A stretch of 64,000 nucleotides of DNA from an uncultured Gammaproteobacteria bacterium (lineage in GTDB: Bacteria; Patescibacteriota; Patescibacteriia; UBA1558; GWA2-36-10), in contig CAZWYP010000001.1 in the NCBI GenBank assembly GCA_964638415.1, positions 148,650 to 212,649 of the forward strand, given 5' to 3'. The notes under the pieces are model-generated. The model worked only from the letters and a program-made list of their open reading frames with translations. It was not told the DNA's origin and made no database searches. How positions within the stretch are numbered: the stretch's first letter is position 1; each line of letters starts with the position of its first letter. Below, piece after piece: positions 745-19,080 of this stretch. The position numbers were made by a program, and so were the translations under genes.

Positions 745-1758
745 ATGGAAGAGCGAATAATTTCCGGCAGCAAGCAAAAGCAGGATAAGGCGTGGGACAC
801 AACTCTGCGTCCCCAGTCCCTGCAGGATTATGTTGGTCAAGAGCAGGTGAAGGCCAATTTAGACATTGTCTTAACGGCGGCTAAAGGTCGCAGTGAGCCT
901 TTGGATCATGTTTTGCTATTTGGTCCGCCGGGCTTAGGCAAAACTACTTTAGCTCATATCATTGCCAAGGAAATGGGCGTAGGCATTAAAGTGACATCCG
1001 GACCTACCATTACCAAGGCTGGAGATTTAGCGGCGATTATTACCAACTTGCAGGAAGGGGATATTTTGTTTATCGATGAAATCCACCGTTTAAATAAAGT
1101 AATTGAAGAGATTCTTTATCCGGCCATGGAAGACTATGCTTTGGATATTATCTTAGGCAAAGGACCGAGTGCGCAGATTCTGCGCTTGGATCTACCTAAA
1201 TTTACCATCATTGGCGCTACCACCAGATACAATTTAATTTCTTCTCCCCTAAGAGACAGGTTTGGCGCTACCTTCCGTCTGGATTTTTATTCGCCGGAAG
1301 AATTGCAAACTATTGTTAAGCGGTCGGCAGATATTTTAGGAGTGAAGATAATCAAGGAAGCCTTAGAGGAGATTTCCCGCCGTTCTCGCGGCACTCCCCG
1401 CATTGCTAACCGCATTTTAAAAAGAGTCAGGGATTATGCGCAGGTGAAATCCAATGGCGATGTGGAAATGGAAATGACTAAGGCCGCTTTGGATTTAATG
1501 GCTATTGACCACAATGGTTTGGATGAATTAGACCGGAGGTTGTTAAAGATAATTATAGAGAATTATCAGGGAGGGCCGGTAGGTTTAAGCACTTTGGCCG
1601 CCGCTTTAAATGAAGAAGCTGGCACGATTGAAGAAGTATTTGAACCTTATTTGATGCAATTAGGATTATTAGCTAGAACGGCCAAAGGCCGGATGGCAAC
1701 ACCCAAAGCTTATGATTATTTGGGAGTTAATAAGTTGGAAGATAATAGTTTGTTTTAA
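745..1758 (+). CDS. ruvB: Holliday junction branch-migration ATPase RuvB
   Basis: Walker [14 protein letters not shown], sensor motifs and a winged-helix C-terminus; 337 aa, typical RuvB length. Confidence 0.9.
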
Positions 1759-2340
1759 ATGAAGCCTAAACTTTTATTGCACGCTTGTTGTGCGCCGTGT
1801 TCAATTTATGTCTTGAAGAAATTGTCAGCCGATTGGCAGGTGACGATTTTTTTCTATGATCCCAATATTCATCCAAAAGAAGAATATGACAAGCGCCGTG
1901 ATGAATTGAAAAAGTATGCAGAGAAGATAGGTATTAATTTTGAGGAAGGCGAGTATGATGTGGATGTCTGGCTGGAAAAAACCAAAGGATTGGAATTAGA
2001 GCCGGAGCGGGGCCGTCGCTGTATAATCTGTTTTGATATCCGCCTGTCCAAAACTGCTATTAAAGCCAAGCAGGAAAATTATGATGCTTTTGCCACGGTA
2101 ATGTCCATTAGTCCGCATAAGGATTACCAGGCTTTAAGCCGGGTTGGTAATCGCTTGGCTCATAAATTCAATATTCTATTCTTAGACGGTAATTGGAAGA
2201 AGCAGGGTGGTTTTATCCAGGCTTTAGCCCTGTCTAAAGCCGAAGGTTTTTACCGCCAGGATTACTGCGGCTGCATTTATTCACAGGCGGCTAGAGAAAA
2301 GATAAAATCAGCCAAACAGCATGAACATCAAACTGTTTAA
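1759..2340 (+). CDS. queH: Epoxyqueuosine reductase QueH (DUF208)
   Basis: N-terminal LLHACCAPCS Cys motif plus downstream CxxC...C; ~190 aa; sits next to queA. Confidence 0.8.
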   Translation: MKPKLLLHACCAPCSIYVLKKLSADWQVTIFFYDPNIHPKEEYDKRRDELKKYAEKIGINFEEGEYDVDVWLEKTKGLELEPERGRRCIICFDIRLSKTAIKAKQENYDAFATVMSISPHKDYQALSRVGNRLAHKFNILFLDGNWKKQGGFIQALALSKAEGFYRQDYCGCIYSQAAREKIKSAKQHEHQTV

Positions 2341-6957: not shown

Positions 6958-7557
6958 CTACCAGCGGTAGCCAACGCCGAGAATTAATTTCTCGGTATTG
7001 CCTTCCCCGGAGCCAAAGGTGTACCACGGCTTCAGGTAGAATTGTCCCAAGTTGATCAGCGCGGTCGGTCCGATATCCACTTGGGAAGAAAATCCTGAAG
7101 TGAATTCATGGTAAACCTGTTCTCCGATGCCCACCTTAACCAGTAGATGTGCCTGGTAAGTGACGTCCATCCACTGGTAGGCCCAGTCAGGCATGCTGCC
7201 GGCACCGGTCCAGGCGGCGTATTGGTAGAGGCTGAAGAAGCCGAACTTGCCGCGTCCACCGCCGACATAGACTTCGGGACTGAAACCATCATAGTCTCCG
7301 CTCAAGATGCCGATGGCCGGAGTGACATTGAGACGCCTGTCGCCATAGGGTTTGCCGGCGAAGATGCCGAAGGTGTTGGGTGCGTCGAAGTCGTAGCGCG
7401 CTTCAAAGAAGAGGTTTTCCGTGACTTGGGTGTACCAGAAGATATTGGTCTTCTGGCCGTCGACGTTCTTGTAGAAATACGAGAGGTCGTTCAGGGCCCA
7501 GACTTGGCTGGATAAGGCGATCAGGCTGATCAGGGTGGTCAAAAAGAGCTTCAACAT
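6958..7557 (-). CDS. Small outer-membrane-like beta-barrel protein (signal peptide, alternating amphipathic strands, C-terminal ...GVGYRW)
   Basis: ORF 6958-7629; likely start is ATG at 7555-7557 after AAAGGAAG; C-terminal aromatic residue; GC clearly above the local background. Confidence 0.55.
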   Translation of the reverse strand: MLKLFLTTLISLIALSSQVWALNDLSYFYKNVDGQKTNIFWYTQVTENLFFEARYDFDAPNTFGIFAGKPYGDRRLNVTPAIGILSGDYDGFSPEVYVGGGRGKFGFFSLYQYAAWTGAGSMPDWAYQWMDVTYQAHLLVKVGIGEQVYHEFTSGFSSQVDIGPTALINLGQFYLKPWYTFGSGEGNTEKLILGVGYRW

Positions 7558-7721
7558 GGAGACTTCCTTTGGTTGGGAAATATGGTAGATAGATTGAAAG
7601 AAGAACAAAGTAATATGATATACTATCATATTATTGCTATTTTGTCAAGGTATATGTGTTTCCTTTATTTTTTTAAGATCTTCATGATATAGTTAATAAA
7701 GCTAATTTTTAGGATAAAATT

Positions 7722-9131: not shown

Positions 9132-9145
9132 GAGTTAATTAAATA

Positions 9146-9176
9146 AAAAACCGGCAATTAGCCGGTTTTTTAGGGC
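9146..9176 (+). terminator. Intrinsic terminator CCGGCAATTAGCCGG followed by TTTTTT
   Basis: Stem-loop and T-run directly downstream of the stop codon at 9131. Confidence 0.75.
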
Positions 9177-9293
9177 TTAAGTGATTTATATTTCGGCTAA
9201 CGGGCGTGCGTATGCGAAGTCGTGATTGAGCAAATATGATAAAATTTATGAAATCATATTTGCGAAAGGACGATTTGCGTGAGCGGACTAAAA

Positions 9294-9815
9294 CTATTCT
9301 TTATCTTTTTTATTTAGCTTGTCTTGTTTAGCTAATGCGAAAAATATTTTTATAAATACCGGTATAGTAACTAGTGTTTTAAGAATATTTTTTCGCTTTT
9401 TTATTTTATTTCTTTTTCCATCCAAGACTTCTTTTATTCTATCATATTGTTTTTCTAATCCTTTATGAACCCATAATCCATCGGTGGCTAATCCACCACC
9501 CATACCGCCAGCAATACCTTGTCCAGGTTCCATTTCTTCAAAAAATATTCTTGCCCCGTCAGGATCTTCATAGTCTATATCTTTAAGAAGATTTTCCAAA
9601 GCTTTATAATCACATTTTATTTGCTGCACAGGTGCTGAAAGATAAATCTGGCCACCATAATCACCCTGCATAATCATATATGCATTAGAATGTTTTTTAG
9701 CTTCCTCGAAGTTTTTAAAAGCTTTGTATTTAATACCTTGGCTTTCAGACATTAATTTTCTGACACCACTTTCATGTTCTGGTATTATTATTTCTTTGAT
9801 TTCTTGTTCTTTCAT
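9294..9815 (-). CDS. Hypothetical protein with a Gly-rich loop (GIAGGMGGGL) and a C-terminal TM helix; its start and stop codons abut an 11-bp perfect inverted repeat
   Basis: ORF track; TM segment ILKTLVTIPVFIKIFFALA. Confidence 0.5.
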   Translation of the reverse strand: MKEQEIKEIIIPEHESGVRKLMSESQGIKYKAFKNFEEAKKHSNAYMIMQGDYGGQIYLSAPVQQIKCDYKALENLLKDIDYEDPDGARIFFEEMEPGQGIAGGMGGGLATDGLWVHKGLEKQYDRIKEVLDGKRNKIKKRKNILKTLVTIPVFIKIFFALAKQDKLNKKDKE

Positions 9816-9862
9816 ATTTTTAGTCCGCGAACCGCATACGCGGTGTTAGGCGCTGTTATTTT

Positions 9863-10327
9863 TTATTCCCACTCCTTTTGCATTTTTTCCATTAATTCAT
9901 TTTCTGTAAATTTGAATGGTGTAAAACAGAGCTGAAGTGTCCGACCCTCTTTGGCAATTTTTTTTATTTCAGAATAACTTTTTTCTTTTTTGAGTAATTG
10001 GTGAATAATTTTATTTCTATTATTGTTAAATTTTTTAATTGCTTCATATCCATCCTTATTAATGCAGGATAATAGAAAGGCAATTTCAATATAATCATTA
10101 AAATATTTTATAAAATTGCCTTGATTATTTTGAAGAATTTTGATTTTTTCTATAAAATCATCTGAGGATTTTTCTTGGCTAATTAATTTGTTGGCTATTA
10201 AGCTTTTTATATGTAGCTCTAGGTAATTATGTACAAGCGAAATCACCTCAATATAGCATTTTTGTTTAACAGCTCTAGAAATTACTTCGTCAAAATTCTT
10301 CTCGTCTATTTGAAAGTCATTTTCCAT
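9863..10327 (-). CDS. Hypothetical all-alpha cytoplasmic protein with an Rx4H motif (RNKIIH), HEPN-like
   Basis: ORF track; motif lies in the C-terminal third, as in HepT/HEPN RNases; bracketed by GTTAGGCGC/GCGCCTAAC. Confidence 0.45.
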   Translation of the reverse strand: MENDFQIDEKNFDEVISRAVKQKCYIEVISLVHNYLELHIKSLIANKLISQEKSSDDFIEKIKILQNNQGNFIKYFNDYIEIAFLLSCINKDGYEAIKKFNNNRNKIIHQLLKKEKSYSEIKKIAKEGRTLQLCFTPFKFTENELMEKMQKEWE

Positions 10328-10391
10328 AATTGTTATTTAAATTTGAAATAATGGCGCCTAACCACTGTGTTGACGAACCTATTGACATCAT

Positions 10392-10405
10392 AGCCAATAT
10401 TGGCT
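10392..10405. promoter_or_regulatory. Perfect 14-bp palindrome AGCCAATATTGGCT in the divergent region between the small genes and the recombinase; overlaps a TTGACA -35 box (10382-10387)
   Basis: Read directly from the sequence. Confidence 0.5.
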
Positions 10406-10440
10406 AAAAAGTAAATAATAATCATTAATCACAATTAGTT

Positions 10441-11307
10441 ATGAAGAAAAGCGATAACACAGGCGGAAAGCCTGTAGATTTGGCTAATATCAGCAATCAG
10501 CATCCCTTGCGTTCTTTAGCTCAAGAATTAGTAATTAGGGGATTTTCTCGGCGGACAATTAAGGGTTATTTGGCATATAATCAGTCTTTCCTTAATTTTA
10601 TTGGTAAGTCAGCTAAGGAAGTTAATCAGCAGGATCTTAAGGATTATTTGTTATATCTAAAGGGTAGAAAATATAGTAATACTTCCTTGAATAATGTTAT
10701 TTCAGCCTTGAAGTTTTATTACCAGCAGATTCTTAAGAGGAAGCTGTTTTTTAATATACAGCGTCCTAGGCGGGAAAAATTTTTGCCGGTAGTTTTATCT
10801 AAAGAAGAGATTTATGCTTTACTGGCTGCTATAGTTAACTCTAAGCATAAGCTAATAATTTCTTTGGCTTACAGCGCTGGTTTGCGGGTTAGTGAAGTTG
10901 TTAATTTAAAAATTAAAGATATTGATTTTCCTAGTAGCAGTATTACTGTGCGTGGAGGCAAGGGGAATAAAGATAGGGTTACTGTCTTTTCTGAAAAGTT
11001 AAAAACGGAATTGCTAAATTTAATTTCTAACAGAGATAAAAATGATTTTGTGTTTATTAGCCAGTCAGGGGAAAAATTGACCATTCGCACTCTGCAGAAG
11101 ATTTTTGCCAGTGCGCTTATTCGTTCTGGCATTGCTAAAGCTGCGACTTTTCATTCTTTGCGCCATAGCTTTGCTACGCATTTGCTGGAAAATGGTACGA
11201 ACATCAGATACATTCAGGAGTTATTGGGTCATCAGAATATTAAAACCACCCAAGTGTATACTCAGGTGGCTAGTTGGAGGTTGAAGAATATTATTAGTCC
11301 TTTATAA
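10441..11307 (+). CDS. Tyrosine site-specific recombinase (Xer/phage-integrase family)
   Basis: SAM-like N-terminal domain; catalytic ...AGLRVSE... (Arg), HSLRHSFATHLL (His-x-x-Arg), LLGHQNIKTTQVYTQV (Tyr); 288 aa with no IntI-specific insertion. Confidence 0.85.
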   Translation: MKKSDNTGGKPVDLANISNQHPLRSLAQELVIRGFSRRTIKGYLAYNQSFLNFIGKSAKEVNQQDLKDYLLYLKGRKYSNTSLNNVISALKFYYQQILKRKLFFNIQRPRREKFLPVVLSKEEIYALLAAIVNSKHKLIISLAYSAGLRVSEVVNLKIKDIDFPSSSITVRGGKGNKDRVTVFSEKLKTELLNLISNRDKNDFVFISQSGEKLTIRTLQKIFASALIRSGIAKAATFHSLRHSFATHLLENGTNIRYIQELLGHQNIKTTQVYTQVASWRLKNIISPL

Positions 11308-17820: not shown

Positions 17821-19080
17821 TTATAATTCTGGATAAAGGGGGAATCGCTGCATTAAGTCTATAATCTTTTTCTTGCTATCTGCTGTTGCTTGCTTGTTTT
17901 TTAGGGTAGCAATAATTACTTCAGCAATAATTTCCATGTCCACTTCTTTTAGTCCGCGGGTAGTTAAAGCAGGTGTGCCTAGGCGGATGCCGGATGGATC
18001 CATTGGTTTGCGCTGGTCAAAAGGTATCATGTTTTTATTGGTATAAACATAAACTTCATCCAGTAATTTTTCCGCCTCTTTGCCGGATAATCCTAAAGGA
18101 GTGACGTCTAGCAGCAGCAGATGATTGTCAGTTCCTTGGCTAATAATCCTAATGCCTGCTGCTTTGAATTTATTTTCCAAAACTTTAGCATTAGCTAAAA
18201 CTTGTTTTTGGTAATCAACAAATTCAGGCTGTAAAGCTTCCTGGAAAGCAATAGCTTTAGCGGCGATAATATGCTCTAATGGTCCGCCTTGCATGCCGGG
18301 AAAAACCGCAGAATCTATTTTCTGGGCTAAGGTTTTTTCTCCGGGATTAATGCGATCTTCAATTTTGGAAAGGATCATCGCTCCCCGCGGTCCACGTAGA
18401 GTTTTGTGAGTGGTGGTTGTTACCACGTCAGCATAGGGAAGAGGATCCGGGTGTAATTTGGCGGCAACTAGGCCGGCAATATGCGCCATGTCTACCATTA
18501 GGTAAGCGCCGACTTCATCAGCGATTTTTTTGAAAGCGGCAAAGTCTATGGCGCGGGAATAAGCGGAAGCACCGGCTAAGATTATTTTCGGCTTATGCAT
18601 CATGGCCTGGTTGCGCACTTCATCAAGGTCAATCATCTCAGTTTTTTGGTCAACACCATAGCTGACAAAATGGTAGAATTTGCCGGAGAAATTGACTGGA
18701 TGGCCGTGAGTCAAATGCCCGCCATGAGCTAGAGAAAAACCCAAAATAGTATCTCCCAAATTACAGAGAGCAAAATATGCTTCCATATTAGCTTGAGAGC
18801 CGGCATGAGGCTGGACATTGGCGTGTTCAGCGCCGAATAATTTTTTGGCCCGTTCTATAGCTAAGCTTTCTACCTGGTCAATAAACTCATTACCGCCATA
18901 GTATCTTTTGTTAGGATAGCCTTCAGCATATTTATTGGTTAAGACTGAGCCGGCGGCGGCTAAGACTGCCGGAGAGACAAAGTTTTCCGAAGCAATCATT
19001 TCCGCGCCTTGACGCTGGCGCTCTAATTCCTGACGGATAATTGCATTAATTTGCGGATCTGTTTTTTCTAATATTTTCAT
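17821..19080 (-). CDS. glyA: Serine hydroxymethyltransferase GlyA
   Basis: [16 protein letters not shown]-binding [13 protein letters not shown] motifs; 419 aa. Confidence 0.92.

What the first reader, a model, noticed from the sequence alone, without database searches (positions are those of the whole stretch)
9863..10327. HEPN-like Rx4H motif in cassette gene A, paired with membrane-anchored gene B: possible toxin/abortive-infection pair
Gene A encodes a 154-aa all-alpha cytoplasmic protein. It has RNKIIH (R-x4-H) in its C-terminal third, which is the position and spacing of the catalytic motif of HEPN/HepT RNases. Its neighbour B (173 aa) has a glycine-rich loop and a single C-terminal TM helix. 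A small HEPN-like protein next to a membrane-anchored partner inside a recombinase-borne cassette suggests a toxin-antitoxin or anti-phage cargo pair. This is inferred from a single short motif, so confidence is low.
Basis: inference. Interest (0 to 1): 0.55.

Follow-up and report, generated by a model that had tools for sequence, protein, structure and literature searches.

The report
New HEPN-type cassette gene, unpaired
Gene A belongs to a previously unnamed family of HEPN-type (probable RNA-cutting) proteins and is carried as a mobile gene cassette, but its neighbour B is an unrelated, separately mobile cassette, not its partner.

Summary
Gene A (9863-10327, minus strand, 154 aa) carries RNKIIH at residues 104-109. 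Gene B (9294-9815, minus strand, 173 aa) has a glycine-rich loop and a hydrophobic C-terminal tail.

The HEPN reading of A is supported. In 43 homologues averaging 19% column identity, R104 and H109 are invariant, and N105 is present in 42 of 43. An Ex3[K/R] motif sits in helix 2. A confident AlphaFold model (pLDDT 90) has HEPN helix topology. The only recurrent non-zinc-ribbon Pfam hits, and the most probable PDB fold matches, are HEPN proteins, but all are below significance. No Pfam, NCBIfam, PADLOC or PDB entry covers the family.

The toxin/partner reading is not supported:
- A homologues occur without B in three loci.
- B homologues occur without A in six loci.
- B's membrane-like tail is absent from all 19 homologues.

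Both genes are cassettes of a small integron-like array. The adjacent Patescibacteria-type tyrosine recombinase lacks the integron-integrase additional domain. Both families are otherwise mostly found in DPANN archaea.

Unexpectedly, B sits inside the palindromic recombination site that ends cassette A. The same nesting recurs in related loci.

Verdict: a new member of a known kind, in an unusual and possibly undescribed cassette system.

The parts
9863..10327 (-). Gene A: 154-aa stand-alone HEPN-superfamily protein of a new family. It is the first cassette of the array.
   Evidence: ORF. The family has 55 representatives. AlphaFold model: pLDDT 90.2, pTM 0.85.
10001..10018 (-). Codons for R104-N-K-I-I-H109, the Rx4H motif.
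   Evidence: Read. R is 43/43, N105 is 42/43 and H is 43/43 in A2. The motif lies near the end of predicted helix 91-112.
10205..10219 (-). Codons for E37-x3-K41, the second HEPN-type motif (Ex3[K/R]) in predicted helix 2.
   Evidence: E37 is 41/41 non-gap residues; K or R at position 41 occurs in 24/43. The criterion is from PMC3710099.
9294..9815 (-). Gene B: 173-aa protein of an uncharacterised family with conserved EGDYGGQIYL, GGMGGG and W-x-H. It is an independent cassette.
   Evidence: No Pfam, NCBIfam, PADLOC, PHROG or PDB match.
9330..9386 (-). Codons for B residues 144-162, a hydrophobic, transmembrane-like tail found only in this copy.
   Evidence: Hydropathy 2.05. Absent from all 19 homologues in A3.
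10356..10440 (-). attI-like site plus the divergent promoter region. Conservation among five loci stops at the crossover G10362|T10361 of GTTAGGC.
   Evidence: Alignment A6 of the window, L141, L142, L140 and L003. Motif position. Promoter-like TTTACT-17-TATGAT at 10415-10387.
9845..9851 (-). R''-like box GCCTAAC at the 3' end of cassette A. Extended to GGCGCCTAAC, it is the reverse complement of the cassette's 5' end, GTTAGGCGCC.
9830..9841 (-). 5' stem arm GCGTATGCG followed by GTT, the proposed insertion point of cassette B.
9818..9828 (-). Left arm (GCGGACTAAAA) of the 11-bp perfect inverted repeat that brackets the B ORF.
   Evidence: The same repeat flanks the B homologue in L003.
9283..9293 (-). 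Right arm (TTTTAGTCCGC) of the inverted repeat. It starts at the first base after B's stop codon.
9217..9276 (-). Inner imperfect hairpin of the palindromic site, with arms 9217-9240 and 9253-9276.
   Evidence: I3. Fold (z = -2.3 to -2.7).
9195..9216 (-). 3' stem arm CGCATACGC (9216-9208), spacer, and R'-like box GTTAGCC (9201-9195). This closes the palindrome that began at 9851.
9144..9172 (-). Intrinsic-terminator-like hairpin that ends the A-B transcription unit.
10441..11307 (+). 288-aa tyrosine recombinase of the Patescibacteria type. It lacks the additional domain that defines integron integrases.

Best explanation
Gene A encodes a stand-alone protein of the HEPN superfamily, in a family not yet named in Pfam, NCBIfam or PADLOC. 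By analogy with characterised HEPN proteins, it is most likely a metal-independent endoribonuclease. Its active site would be built from the invariant Arg104, Asn105 and His109 at the end of core helix 3, helped by Glu37 in helix 2, probably across a dimer interface.

A is the first cassette of a two-gene, integron-like array. The array is inserted at a conserved attI-like site next to a Patescibacteria-type tyrosine recombinase, and is probably read from a promoter in that site.

Gene B is a separate cassette from an unrelated family of unknown function. It lies inside the palindromic attC-like site that ends cassette A. It probably arrived by recombination at the GTT at the tip of that hairpin. 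A and B are therefore physically fused and co-transcribed here, but they are not a dedicated functional pair.

A homologues persist as single-gene cassettes, so A's activity must be harmless or held latent without a linked antitoxin. The likely role is a conflict, defence or stress RNase, like other cassette-borne and island-borne HEPN proteins.

Shown: motif conservation, predicted fold topology, cassette boundaries, and the lack of A-B co-occurrence. Inferred: RNase activity, dimerisation, biological role, and the route by which B was inserted.
For: HEPN assignment:
- R104 and H109 are invariant and N105 is 42/43 in 43 homologues with 19% mean column identity. E37 is 41/41, with K or R four residues later in 24/43.
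- The AlphaFold model built on that alignment has pLDDT 90.2. Its helices are 9-21, 25-51, an insert at 55-66 and 76-85, 91-112 (motif near its end), 118-135 and 142-153. This is the topology described for HEPN in PMC3710099.
- The Pfam hits of family members that are not zinc ribbons recur in the HEPN clan: Apea in 2 members (E = 0.006), RiboL-PSP in 2, MtlR in 1 (E = 4e-4), Cthe2314 in 1.
- The Foldseek PDB matches with the highest probability are HepT 7bxo_F (0.54, TM 0.48/0.55) and MtlR 3brj_D (0.51, TM 0.54/0.50). Other HEPN entries also appear: 8yuf, 6m6u, 6m6w, 3c8g, 5yep, 1wwp.

Cassette status:
- A 10-nt inverted repeat, GTTAGGCGCC...GGCGCCTAAC, brackets A.
- The same A-type cassette, with shared 5' end TTATATGCCATCACTCT, sits behind three different upstream sequences in L001, L002 and L004.
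- Conservation of the attI-like region stops at G|TT in five loci.

Not a pair:
- Searches show each family without the other.

Nesting of B:
- GCGTATGCG and CGCATACGC are the only exact copies in 64 kb, and together with GCCTAAC and GTTAGCC they flank B in the correct nested order.
- Across 10 such sites, the arms pair with their own partner at 8.6 of 9 positions, against 5.2 of 9 with other sites' partners.
- The same layout holds a 270-aa ORF in L140 and other ORFs in L003, L141 and L142.
Against: - No profile or fold match to a known HEPN family reaches significance. Pfam Apea scores 17.5 bits against a cut-off of 24.4. All Foldseek E-values exceed 0.1. PDB sequence and profile searches are empty.
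- An RNase expressed without an antitoxin is unusual for a toxin.
- A and B are only 47 nt apart, with no terminator between them on their strand, so a functional link in this particular genome cannot be excluded.
- The insertion route for B is inferred from sequence alone.
- With loose criteria, attC-like patterns are common by chance. Even with strict criteria about one is expected per 64 kb.
Confidence: 0.65

Rival explanations
1. One reading: A is a HEPN toxin and B is its membrane-anchored antitoxin or sensor partner, forming a two-gene toxin-antitoxin or abortive-infection module.
For: - The genes are adjacent on the same strand with a 47-nt gap.
- A single promoter-like site lies upstream and a single terminator lies downstream.
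- Both are enclosed by one outer palindrome, so they could move as a unit.
- This B copy has a transmembrane-like tail.
Against: - There is no co-occurrence. Three A-homologue loci (L001, L002, L004) lack B, and six B-homologue loci (L003, L014-L019) lack A.
- In L003, B follows an unrelated 144-aa cassette.
- The tail is absent from 19 of 19 homologues.
- B matches no antitoxin, nucleotidyltransferase or defence profile.
Confidence: 0.08
2. A has the HEPN fold but is non-catalytic. It would be a ligand-binding or regulatory protein like MtlR/YggD, or the substrate-binding HEPN domains of nucleotidyltransferases.
For: - One of the two best fold matches is MtlR (3brj_D), and YggD (3c8g) also appears.
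- One family member hits Pfam MtlR at E = 4e-4.
- A is viable without an antitoxin.
Against: According to PMC3710099, non-catalytic HEPN lineages typically lose the Rx4-6H motif. Here R, N and H are essentially invariant, which argues for selection on catalysis.
Confidence: 0.15
3. A is not a HEPN protein at all. It would be an unrelated helical bundle whose conserved FNxxRNxxxH serves another purpose, such as metal or nucleic-acid binding.
For: - No significant sequence or structure match to any HEPN exists.
- Helical bundles give many spurious fold hits.
- Many archaeal members carry N-terminal zinc ribbons.
Against: Four independent features coincide:
- the motif with a polar residue after Arg;
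- Ex3[K/R] in helix 2;
- an insert between helices 2 and 3;
- the motif at the end of helix 3.

The sub-threshold hits also concentrate on HEPN families rather than scattering.
Confidence: 0.12

Closest known systems
'Integron cassette HEPN' family (PDB 3jrt) described in Anantharaman et al. 2013 (PMC3710099)
   Same: A solitary HEPN protein with a conserved Rx4-6H motif, carried as a single-gene integron cassette without an adjacent antitoxin. It was proposed to be a stress or dormancy RNase.
   Different: That family is gammaproteobacterial. 3jrt does not appear among the top 50 fold matches, and no sequence relation was detected. The present family is found in Patescibacteria and DPANN archaea, and often carries an N-terminal zinc ribbon.
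HepT-MntA (HEPN/MNT, type VII toxin-antitoxin; PDB 7bxo, 6m6u, 5yep)
   Same: A small HEPN protein of about 130-150 aa with Rx4H. It gives the best-probability fold match.
   Different: No MNT nucleotidyltransferase gene lies next to A or to any homologue examined. Sequence similarity is undetectable.
Pfam HEPN_Apea (PF18739) and other HEPN-clan families (RiboL-PSP, Cthe_2314, MtlR)
   Same: These are the only non-zinc-ribbon Pfam families hit repeatedly by family members. The aligned region covers the motif-bearing helices.
   Different: All scores are below the gathering thresholds. The family is not a member of any of them.
Canonical integrons (IntI, attI, attC cassettes), including archaeal integrons (Ghaly et al. 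2022, PMC9668308)
   Same: - A divergent recombinase gene, a conserved attI with a G|TT crossover, and promoter-proximal cassettes.
- Palindromic cassette ends with ...AAC / GTT... boxes and covarying stems.
- The same cassette occurs in different arrays.
- Cargo is enriched in conflict genes, and cassette families are shared across domains.
   Different: - The recombinase lacks the additional domain that defines IntI.
- The stems and spacers differ from the canonical R/L box layout.
- Whole genes are repeatedly found inside the palindrome.
- Some cassette breakpoints fall inside the palindrome (L002 vs L004, L014 vs L015), not at R'.
Insertion of integron cassettes at non-att GWT sites (attG; Loot et al. 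preprint 10.1101/2022.09.11.507474)
   Same: It offers a route for a cassette to land at a bare GTT. That could explain B at the GTT tip of A's hairpin, and the solo A-type cassette in L001.
   Different: It was shown for IntI1, IntI2 and IntI3 in E. coli. Nothing is known for this recombinase family.

Membership tests
HEPN superfamily | Conserved Rx4-6H motif | tested here: met
   R104 is 43/43 and H109 is 43/43 in alignment A2, with 19% mean column identity.
HEPN superfamily | Polar residue (N, D or H) immediately after the conserved Arg | tested here: met
   N105 in 42/43. Criterion from PMC3710099.
HEPN superfamily | Second conserved acidic residue in helix 2, typically Ex3[K/R] | tested here: met
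   E37 in 41/41 non-gap sequences. K or R at +4 in 24/43. It lies in predicted helix 25-51.
HEPN superfamily | Four-helix up-down core with an insert between helices 2 and 3, and the motif at the end of helix 3 | tested here: met
   AlphaFold secondary structure (pLDDT 90): helix 1 at 9-21, helix 2 at 25-51, insert at 55-66 and 76-85, helix 3 at 91-112 with R104-H109, helix 4 at 118-135. Topology only; the 3D geometry of Arg and His was not measured.
HEPN superfamily | Statistically significant profile or structure match to an established HEPN family | tested here: inconclusive
   Best Pfam hit is HEPN_Apea at 17.5 bits against a cut-off of 24.4. MtlR reaches E = 4e-4 for one member. Foldseek HepT and MtlR matches have probability 0.51-0.54, TM about 0.5 and E > 1. 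PDB sequence searches are empty.
HEPN superfamily | Metal-independent endoRNase activity dependent on Arg and His | not testable with these tools
   Requires biochemistry.
HepT-MntA / HEPN-MNT toxin-antitoxin | Adjacent minimal nucleotidyltransferase (MNT) antitoxin gene | tested here: not met
   The neighbours are B (no Pfam or NCBIfam match) and the recombinase. No MNT lies beside the homologues in L001, L002, L004, L006, L007 or L010.
Two-gene toxin-antitoxin / Abi module (A+B) | Conserved co-occurrence of the two genes across genomes | tested here: not met
   0 of 3 close A loci carry B, and 0 of 6 other B loci carry A.
Two-gene toxin-antitoxin / Abi module (A+B) | Membrane anchoring of the partner as a family trait | tested here: not met
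   The hydrophobic tail is present only in the window copy. All 19 homologues end before it.
Integron (canonical) | Integrase with the IntI-specific additional domain around patch III | tested here: not met
   Alignment with IntI1 shows a gap of about 45 residues exactly at that domain. TIGR02249 scores 208.6, below its cut-off of 265. XerA_Arch scores 254, above its cut-off of 220.
Integron (canonical) | attI next to the integrase gene, with the crossover at G|TT | tested here: met
   The five-locus alignment is conserved up to ..ACAsTG|TTAG.. and unrelated beyond it.
Integron (canonical) | Cassettes ending in imperfect palindromes with RYYYAAC...GTTRRRY boxes and paired inner boxes | tested here: met
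   Seen in the window, L002, L004, L014, L015, L140 and L142. Stem covariation is 8.6/9 against 5.2/9. Folds have z-scores of -2.3 to -5.4.
Integron (canonical) | Cassette boundary only at R' (G|TT), with ORFs lying between attC sites | tested here: not met
   ORFs lie inside the palindrome in the window, L003, L140, L141 and L142. The breakpoints in L002/L004 and L014/L015 fall inside the palindrome.

The most novel reading that the evidence does not exclude
The locus is an example of an undescribed integron-like system of Patescibacteria (CPR bacteria). Its features would be:
- A widespread Xer-like tyrosine recombinase that lacks the integron-integrase additional domain.
- A conserved attI site served by that recombinase, and attC-like hairpins with their own architecture.
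- Recombination both at the outer GTT box and at a GTT near the hairpin tip, so that whole genes become nested inside the recombination site of the preceding cassette.
- Cassette families, including this new HEPN family and family B, shared with DPANN archaea. That would link the two groups of ultra-small, episymbiotic prokaryotes by cross-domain cassette exchange.
Probability: 0.35. Interest if true: 0.75.

Novelty: new member of a known kind. Interest (0 to 1): 0.45.

Why it matters
HEPN RNases are central effectors of prokaryotic conflict systems, including Cas13, Csm6, HepT and the Abi proteins. A new, compact, antitoxin-less HEPN family would add a candidate RNase whose control mechanism is unknown. 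Its distribution across Patescibacteria and DPANN archaea would be a concrete case of cross-domain cassette sharing.

The context may matter more than the gene. If a recombinase without the IntI additional domain really runs cassette arrays, with genes nested inside the recombination hairpins, the definition of an integron would widen. IntegronFinder requires a match to the IntI-specific domain profile to call an integron integrase (PMC9668308), so this recombinase would not be called one and such arrays could be reported at most as attC clusters without an integrase. The locus would also give a testable system for how the structure-specific recombination of integrons evolved from Xer-type recombinases.

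Tried and rejected
1. The first AlphaFold run used only three sequences and gave pLDDT 43, which is unusable. The run with 43 sequences was used instead.
2. PDB sequence and profile searches with P0001, A2 and A4 found nothing relevant. The same was true for family B.
3. PADLOC, NCBIfam and PHROGs gave nothing meaningful for A or B.
4. Foldseek against viral structures gave only unnamed or insignificant hits.
5. The metagenome scan for the junction 14-mer TTCGCGGACTAAAA returned at least 120 loci.
6. The search for related loci with the 43-sequence alignment failed because the alignment was too diverse. It was repeated with 10 sequences.
7. A loose pattern scan of the window for attC-like sites gave about 120 hits per strand, so it was non-specific, and it timed out. 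The strict version finds the A/B site plus one probable chance hit, with about one expected by chance. The pattern alone is therefore not proof.
8. A third exact TTTTAGTCCGC at 17947 lies inside a coding region and was dismissed as chance.
9. The short palindrome after the A homologue in L001 folds no better than shuffled sequence. It is only weak support for a 'minimal attC' ancestor.
10. I considered whether the recombinase site is a dif-like double-stranded Xer site, and the cassettes are pdif-type modules. The arms and spacers do not fit an 11-6-11 layout, and the arms covary as hairpin partners. I therefore kept the attC-like reading, though the alternative is not excluded.

Full report
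**1. Observation**

The ORF at 9863-10327 on the minus strand encodes 154 aa. RNKIIH occupies residues 104-109, which are codons 10018-10001. Gene B (9294-9815, minus strand, 173 aa) contains GIAGGMGGGLATDG. Its C-terminal segment ILKTLVTIPVFIKIFFALA has a mean Kyte-Doolittle hydropathy of 2.05. A tyrosine recombinase (10441-11307, plus strand) is divergent from both genes.

The cassette region has 28-33% G+C, against about 40% around it. The description is accurate. A lone R-x4-H is expected by chance in roughly one protein in ten (my estimate), so the motif needed an independent test.

**2. Is gene A a HEPN protein?**

Word-indexed searching found only two close relatives, at 67-69% identity. 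A profile search of 1.84 billion representatives found 55 proteins at E <= 1e-3, of which 33 were at E <= 1e-10.

In a 43-sequence alignment with 19% mean column identity, only four columns are invariant: F100, N101, R104 and H109. N105 is 42/43 and E37 is 41/41, with K or R four residues later in 24/43. E27, H33 and N34 are nearly invariant.

The criteria of Anantharaman et al. 2013 (PMC3710099) are:
- Rx4-6H at the end of helix 3;
- a polar N, D or H after the Arg;
- an Ex3[K/R] acidic motif in helix 2;
- a four-helix core with an insert between helices 2 and 3.

AlphaFold with this alignment gave pLDDT 90.2 and pTM 0.85. The helices are 9-21, 25-51, 55-66, 76-85, 91-112, 118-135 and 142-153. 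E37-K41 falls in helix 2. Two short helices form the insert. R104-H109 falls near the end of helix 3. All four criteria are therefore met at the level of sequence and topology.

Direct matches are only suggestive.
- Pfam HEPN_Apea scores E = 0.006, 17.5 bits, against a cut-off of 24.4.
- Across the 43 members, the recurrent Pfam hits are zinc ribbons (from N-terminal extensions of archaeal members) and HEPN-clan families: Apea x2, RiboL-PSP x2, MtlR x1 at 4e-4 and Cthe2314 x1.
- Foldseek against the PDB gave nothing at E <= 1e-3.
- The highest-probability PDB hits are HepT 7bxo_F (0.54; TM 0.48/0.55) and MtlR 3brj_D (0.51; TM 0.54/0.50). Other HEPN entries also appear: 8yuf, 6m6u, 6m6w, 3c8g, 5yep and 1wwp.
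- PDB sequence searches, PADLOC, NCBIfam and PHROGs gave nothing.

I conclude, with a probability of about 0.8, that A founds an unnamed family of the HEPN superfamily. The invariance of R, N and H argues for a catalytic (RNase) member rather than a degenerate one.

**3. Is B its partner?**

No.

The A homologue P0002 (L002, and L004 in a Candidatus Uhrbacteria MAG) is a single-gene cassette followed by a transporter gene. P0003 (L001) is a solo cassette between a NUDIX gene and an unrelated convergent gene. None has B.

The B family has 20 members, about 140-150 aa long, with conserved EGDYGGQIYL, GGMGGG and W-x-H. Source names include Nanoarchaeota and Micrarchaeota. It occurs in L003 behind an unrelated 144-aa cassette, and in L014-L019 in other contexts. 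It is never found with A.

B's hydrophobic tail is missing from all 19 homologues. B has no match in any library.

More distant A relatives lie in Nanoarchaeota and Woesearchaeota genomes. They sit among restriction-modification, DUF4411 with ImmA/IrrE, transposase and other variable genes, with no constant neighbour.

A survives as a single-gene cassette. It therefore does not need a linked antitoxin.

**4. The context: an integron-like array**

On the cassette (minus) strand the locus reads, in order:
- the conserved region ...GATGTCAATAGGTTCGTCAACACAGTG;
- G|TTAGGCGCC;
- gene A;
- GGCGCCTAAC;
- ACC-GCGTATGCG-GTT-C;
- GCGGACTAAAA-AT;
- gene B;
- TTTTAGTCCGC-TCAC;
- an imperfect hairpin;
- ACTT-CGCATACGC-ACGCCC;
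- GTTAGCC;
- a terminator.

The recombinase-proximal region is conserved in five loci: the window, L141, L142, L140 and L003. Similarity stops exactly at G|TT, as expected of an attI site. A promoter-like TTTACT-17-TATGAT lies within this region.

Related arrays in L002, L004, L014, L015, L140 and L142 show the same cassette-end design...AAC, a stem arm of about 11 nt, a variable centre, the complementary arm, a short spacer, then GTT.... Across 10 sites, the arms pair with their own partner at 8.6 of 9 positions, against 5.2 of 9 with other sites' partners. The elements fold better than shuffled sequence, with z-scores of -2.3 to -5.4.

The same A-type cassette (5' end TTATATGCCATCACTCT) follows three different upstream sequences. 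That shows it is mobile.

The recombinase is not a canonical integron integrase.
- It aligns with IntI1 at 32% identity but lacks the additional domain of about 45 residues.
- It scores above the cut-off only for NCBIfam XerA_Arch, 'tyrosine recombinase/integron integrase'.
- Its close relatives are abundant in Patescibacteria.

**5. An unexpected feature**

The two halves of cassette A's terminal palindrome lie on either side of gene B: GCCTAAC and the arm GCGTATGCG upstream of it, the arm CGCATACGC and GTTAGCC downstream. B is additionally bracketed by its own 11-bp perfect inverted repeat, which begins at the first base after its stop codon. The two 9-mers are the only exact copies in the window.

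Without B and its flanks, the site would be a compact hairpin, GCGTATGCG-GTT-CGCATACGC.

The same arrangement recurs elsewhere:
- a 270-aa ORF with a 21-bp inverted repeat in L140;
- the B homologue in L003;
- a 240-aa ORF in L141;
- 81-aa and 152-aa ORFs in L142.

In addition, L002 and L004 share sequence upstream of G|TT, back into the preceding palindrome. L014 and L015 diverge just after the ...AAC box. Breakpoints are therefore not confined to the canonical R' position.

The simplest reading is that a cassette can be inserted at the GTT near the hairpin tip. Canonical integrases do use bare GWT sites (preprint 10.1101/2022.09.11.507474). This is an inference, and I found no paper describing such arrays in Patescibacteria.

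**6. Mechanism proposed**

A is most likely a metal-independent endoRNase that uses R104, N105 and H109 with E37, probably as a dimer. It would be expressed from the attI-side promoter as the first cassette. Its activity would be either narrow in target or latent, since it has no antitoxin. It would serve in conflict or stress responses, as proposed for the known 'integron cassette HEPN' family (3jrt; PMC3710099). B is an unrelated passenger of unknown function. It is co-transcribed with A here only because of where it was inserted.

**7. Novelty and score**

A stand-alone HEPN cassette is a known kind of thing. This is a new family of it, with an unusual distribution across Patescibacteria and DPANN archaea. 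The pair hypothesis fails. The surrounding cassette system is the more novel lead, but it goes beyond the finding and needs a census and experiments. Interest is 0.45.

Noticed in passing
window 9195-9851 (minus strand): Gene B lies inside the palindromic attC-like site that terminates cassette A. The outer boxes GCCTAAC/GTTAGCC and the arms GCGTATGCG/CGCATACGC flank it. B also has its own 11-bp perfect inverted repeat, which starts right after the stop codon.
   Followed up: partly
L140 510-2010; L141 715-790; L142 200-400 and 2680-3245; L003 2920-3464: The same 'gene nested in the recombination hairpin' layout recurs next to related recombinases. Examples are a 270-aa ORF with a 21-bp inverted repeat in L140, a 240-aa ORF in L141, and 81-aa and 152-aa ORFs in L142. 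The motif order is conserved: AAC, an arm of about 12 nt, (G/A)TTC, then a centre that can be an ORF or a hairpin, TCAC-sMAAAT, AACTT, the partner arm, and GTT.
   Followed up: partly
window 10441-11307 (+) and 10356-10440: The recombinase lacks the IntI additional domain, yet it sits beside a conserved attI-like site and cassette arrays. More than 5600 relatives at E < 1e-40 exist; among the best-scoring hits that carry a source name, nearly all are from Patescibacteria. Some are annotated 'tyrosine recombinase/integron integrase'.
   Followed up: partly
L002 497-590 vs L004 1255-1370; L014 3460-3560 vs L015 1200-1290: Identical cassettes in different arrays share or lose sequence at breakpoints inside the palindrome. 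In one case the break is 5' of the inner hairpin. In the other it is just after the ...AAC box. Neither is at the canonical G|TT of R'.
   Followed up: partly
L014 2960-3475 and L015 700-1215: In these arrays the B homologue is also bracketed by a perfect inverted repeat that starts at the first base after the stop codon. The sequence differs (GGGGCAAAAT / ATTTTGCCCC) from that in the window and L003, so the pairing is kept while the sequence changes. B homologues outside cassette contexts (L017, L018) lack it.
   Followed up: no
L007 2990-3529: Two genes upstream of an archaeal A-family member lies another small protein of 179 aa with ...GIRNLVAH..., a second R-N-x3-H motif. It has no Pfam or PHROG match and may be another unnamed HEPN-like family.
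   Followed up: partly
L005-L011 (Nanoarchaeota / Woesearchaeota); alignment A2: Most A-family members are archaeal (DPANN), and many carry an N-terminal CxxC...CxxC zinc ribbon that the bacterial cassette copies lack. Named B-family members are also DPANN archaeal. This suggests cross-domain sharing of both cassette families.
   Followed up: partly
L140 about 1560-1830 (minus strand): An apparently ORF-less cassette of about 260 nt lies between G|TTAGACG and CGCCTAA|C. It contains a 10-bp inverted repeat, GCTGGCCGCA/TGCGGCCAGC, and may be a non-coding cassette.
   Followed up: no
window 7001-7500: A local G+C peak of 0.55, against 0.33-0.45 around it, lies inside the 223-aa minus-strand ORF at 6958-7629. 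That ORF has an N-terminal hydrophobic segment and no Pfam match. Long overlapping ORFs occur on both strands.
   Followed up: no
L003 2487-2921: The first cassette in L003 (144 aa, with an N-terminal hydrophobic segment) matches phage family phrog_7512, of unknown function, at E = 3.6e-10.
   Followed up: no
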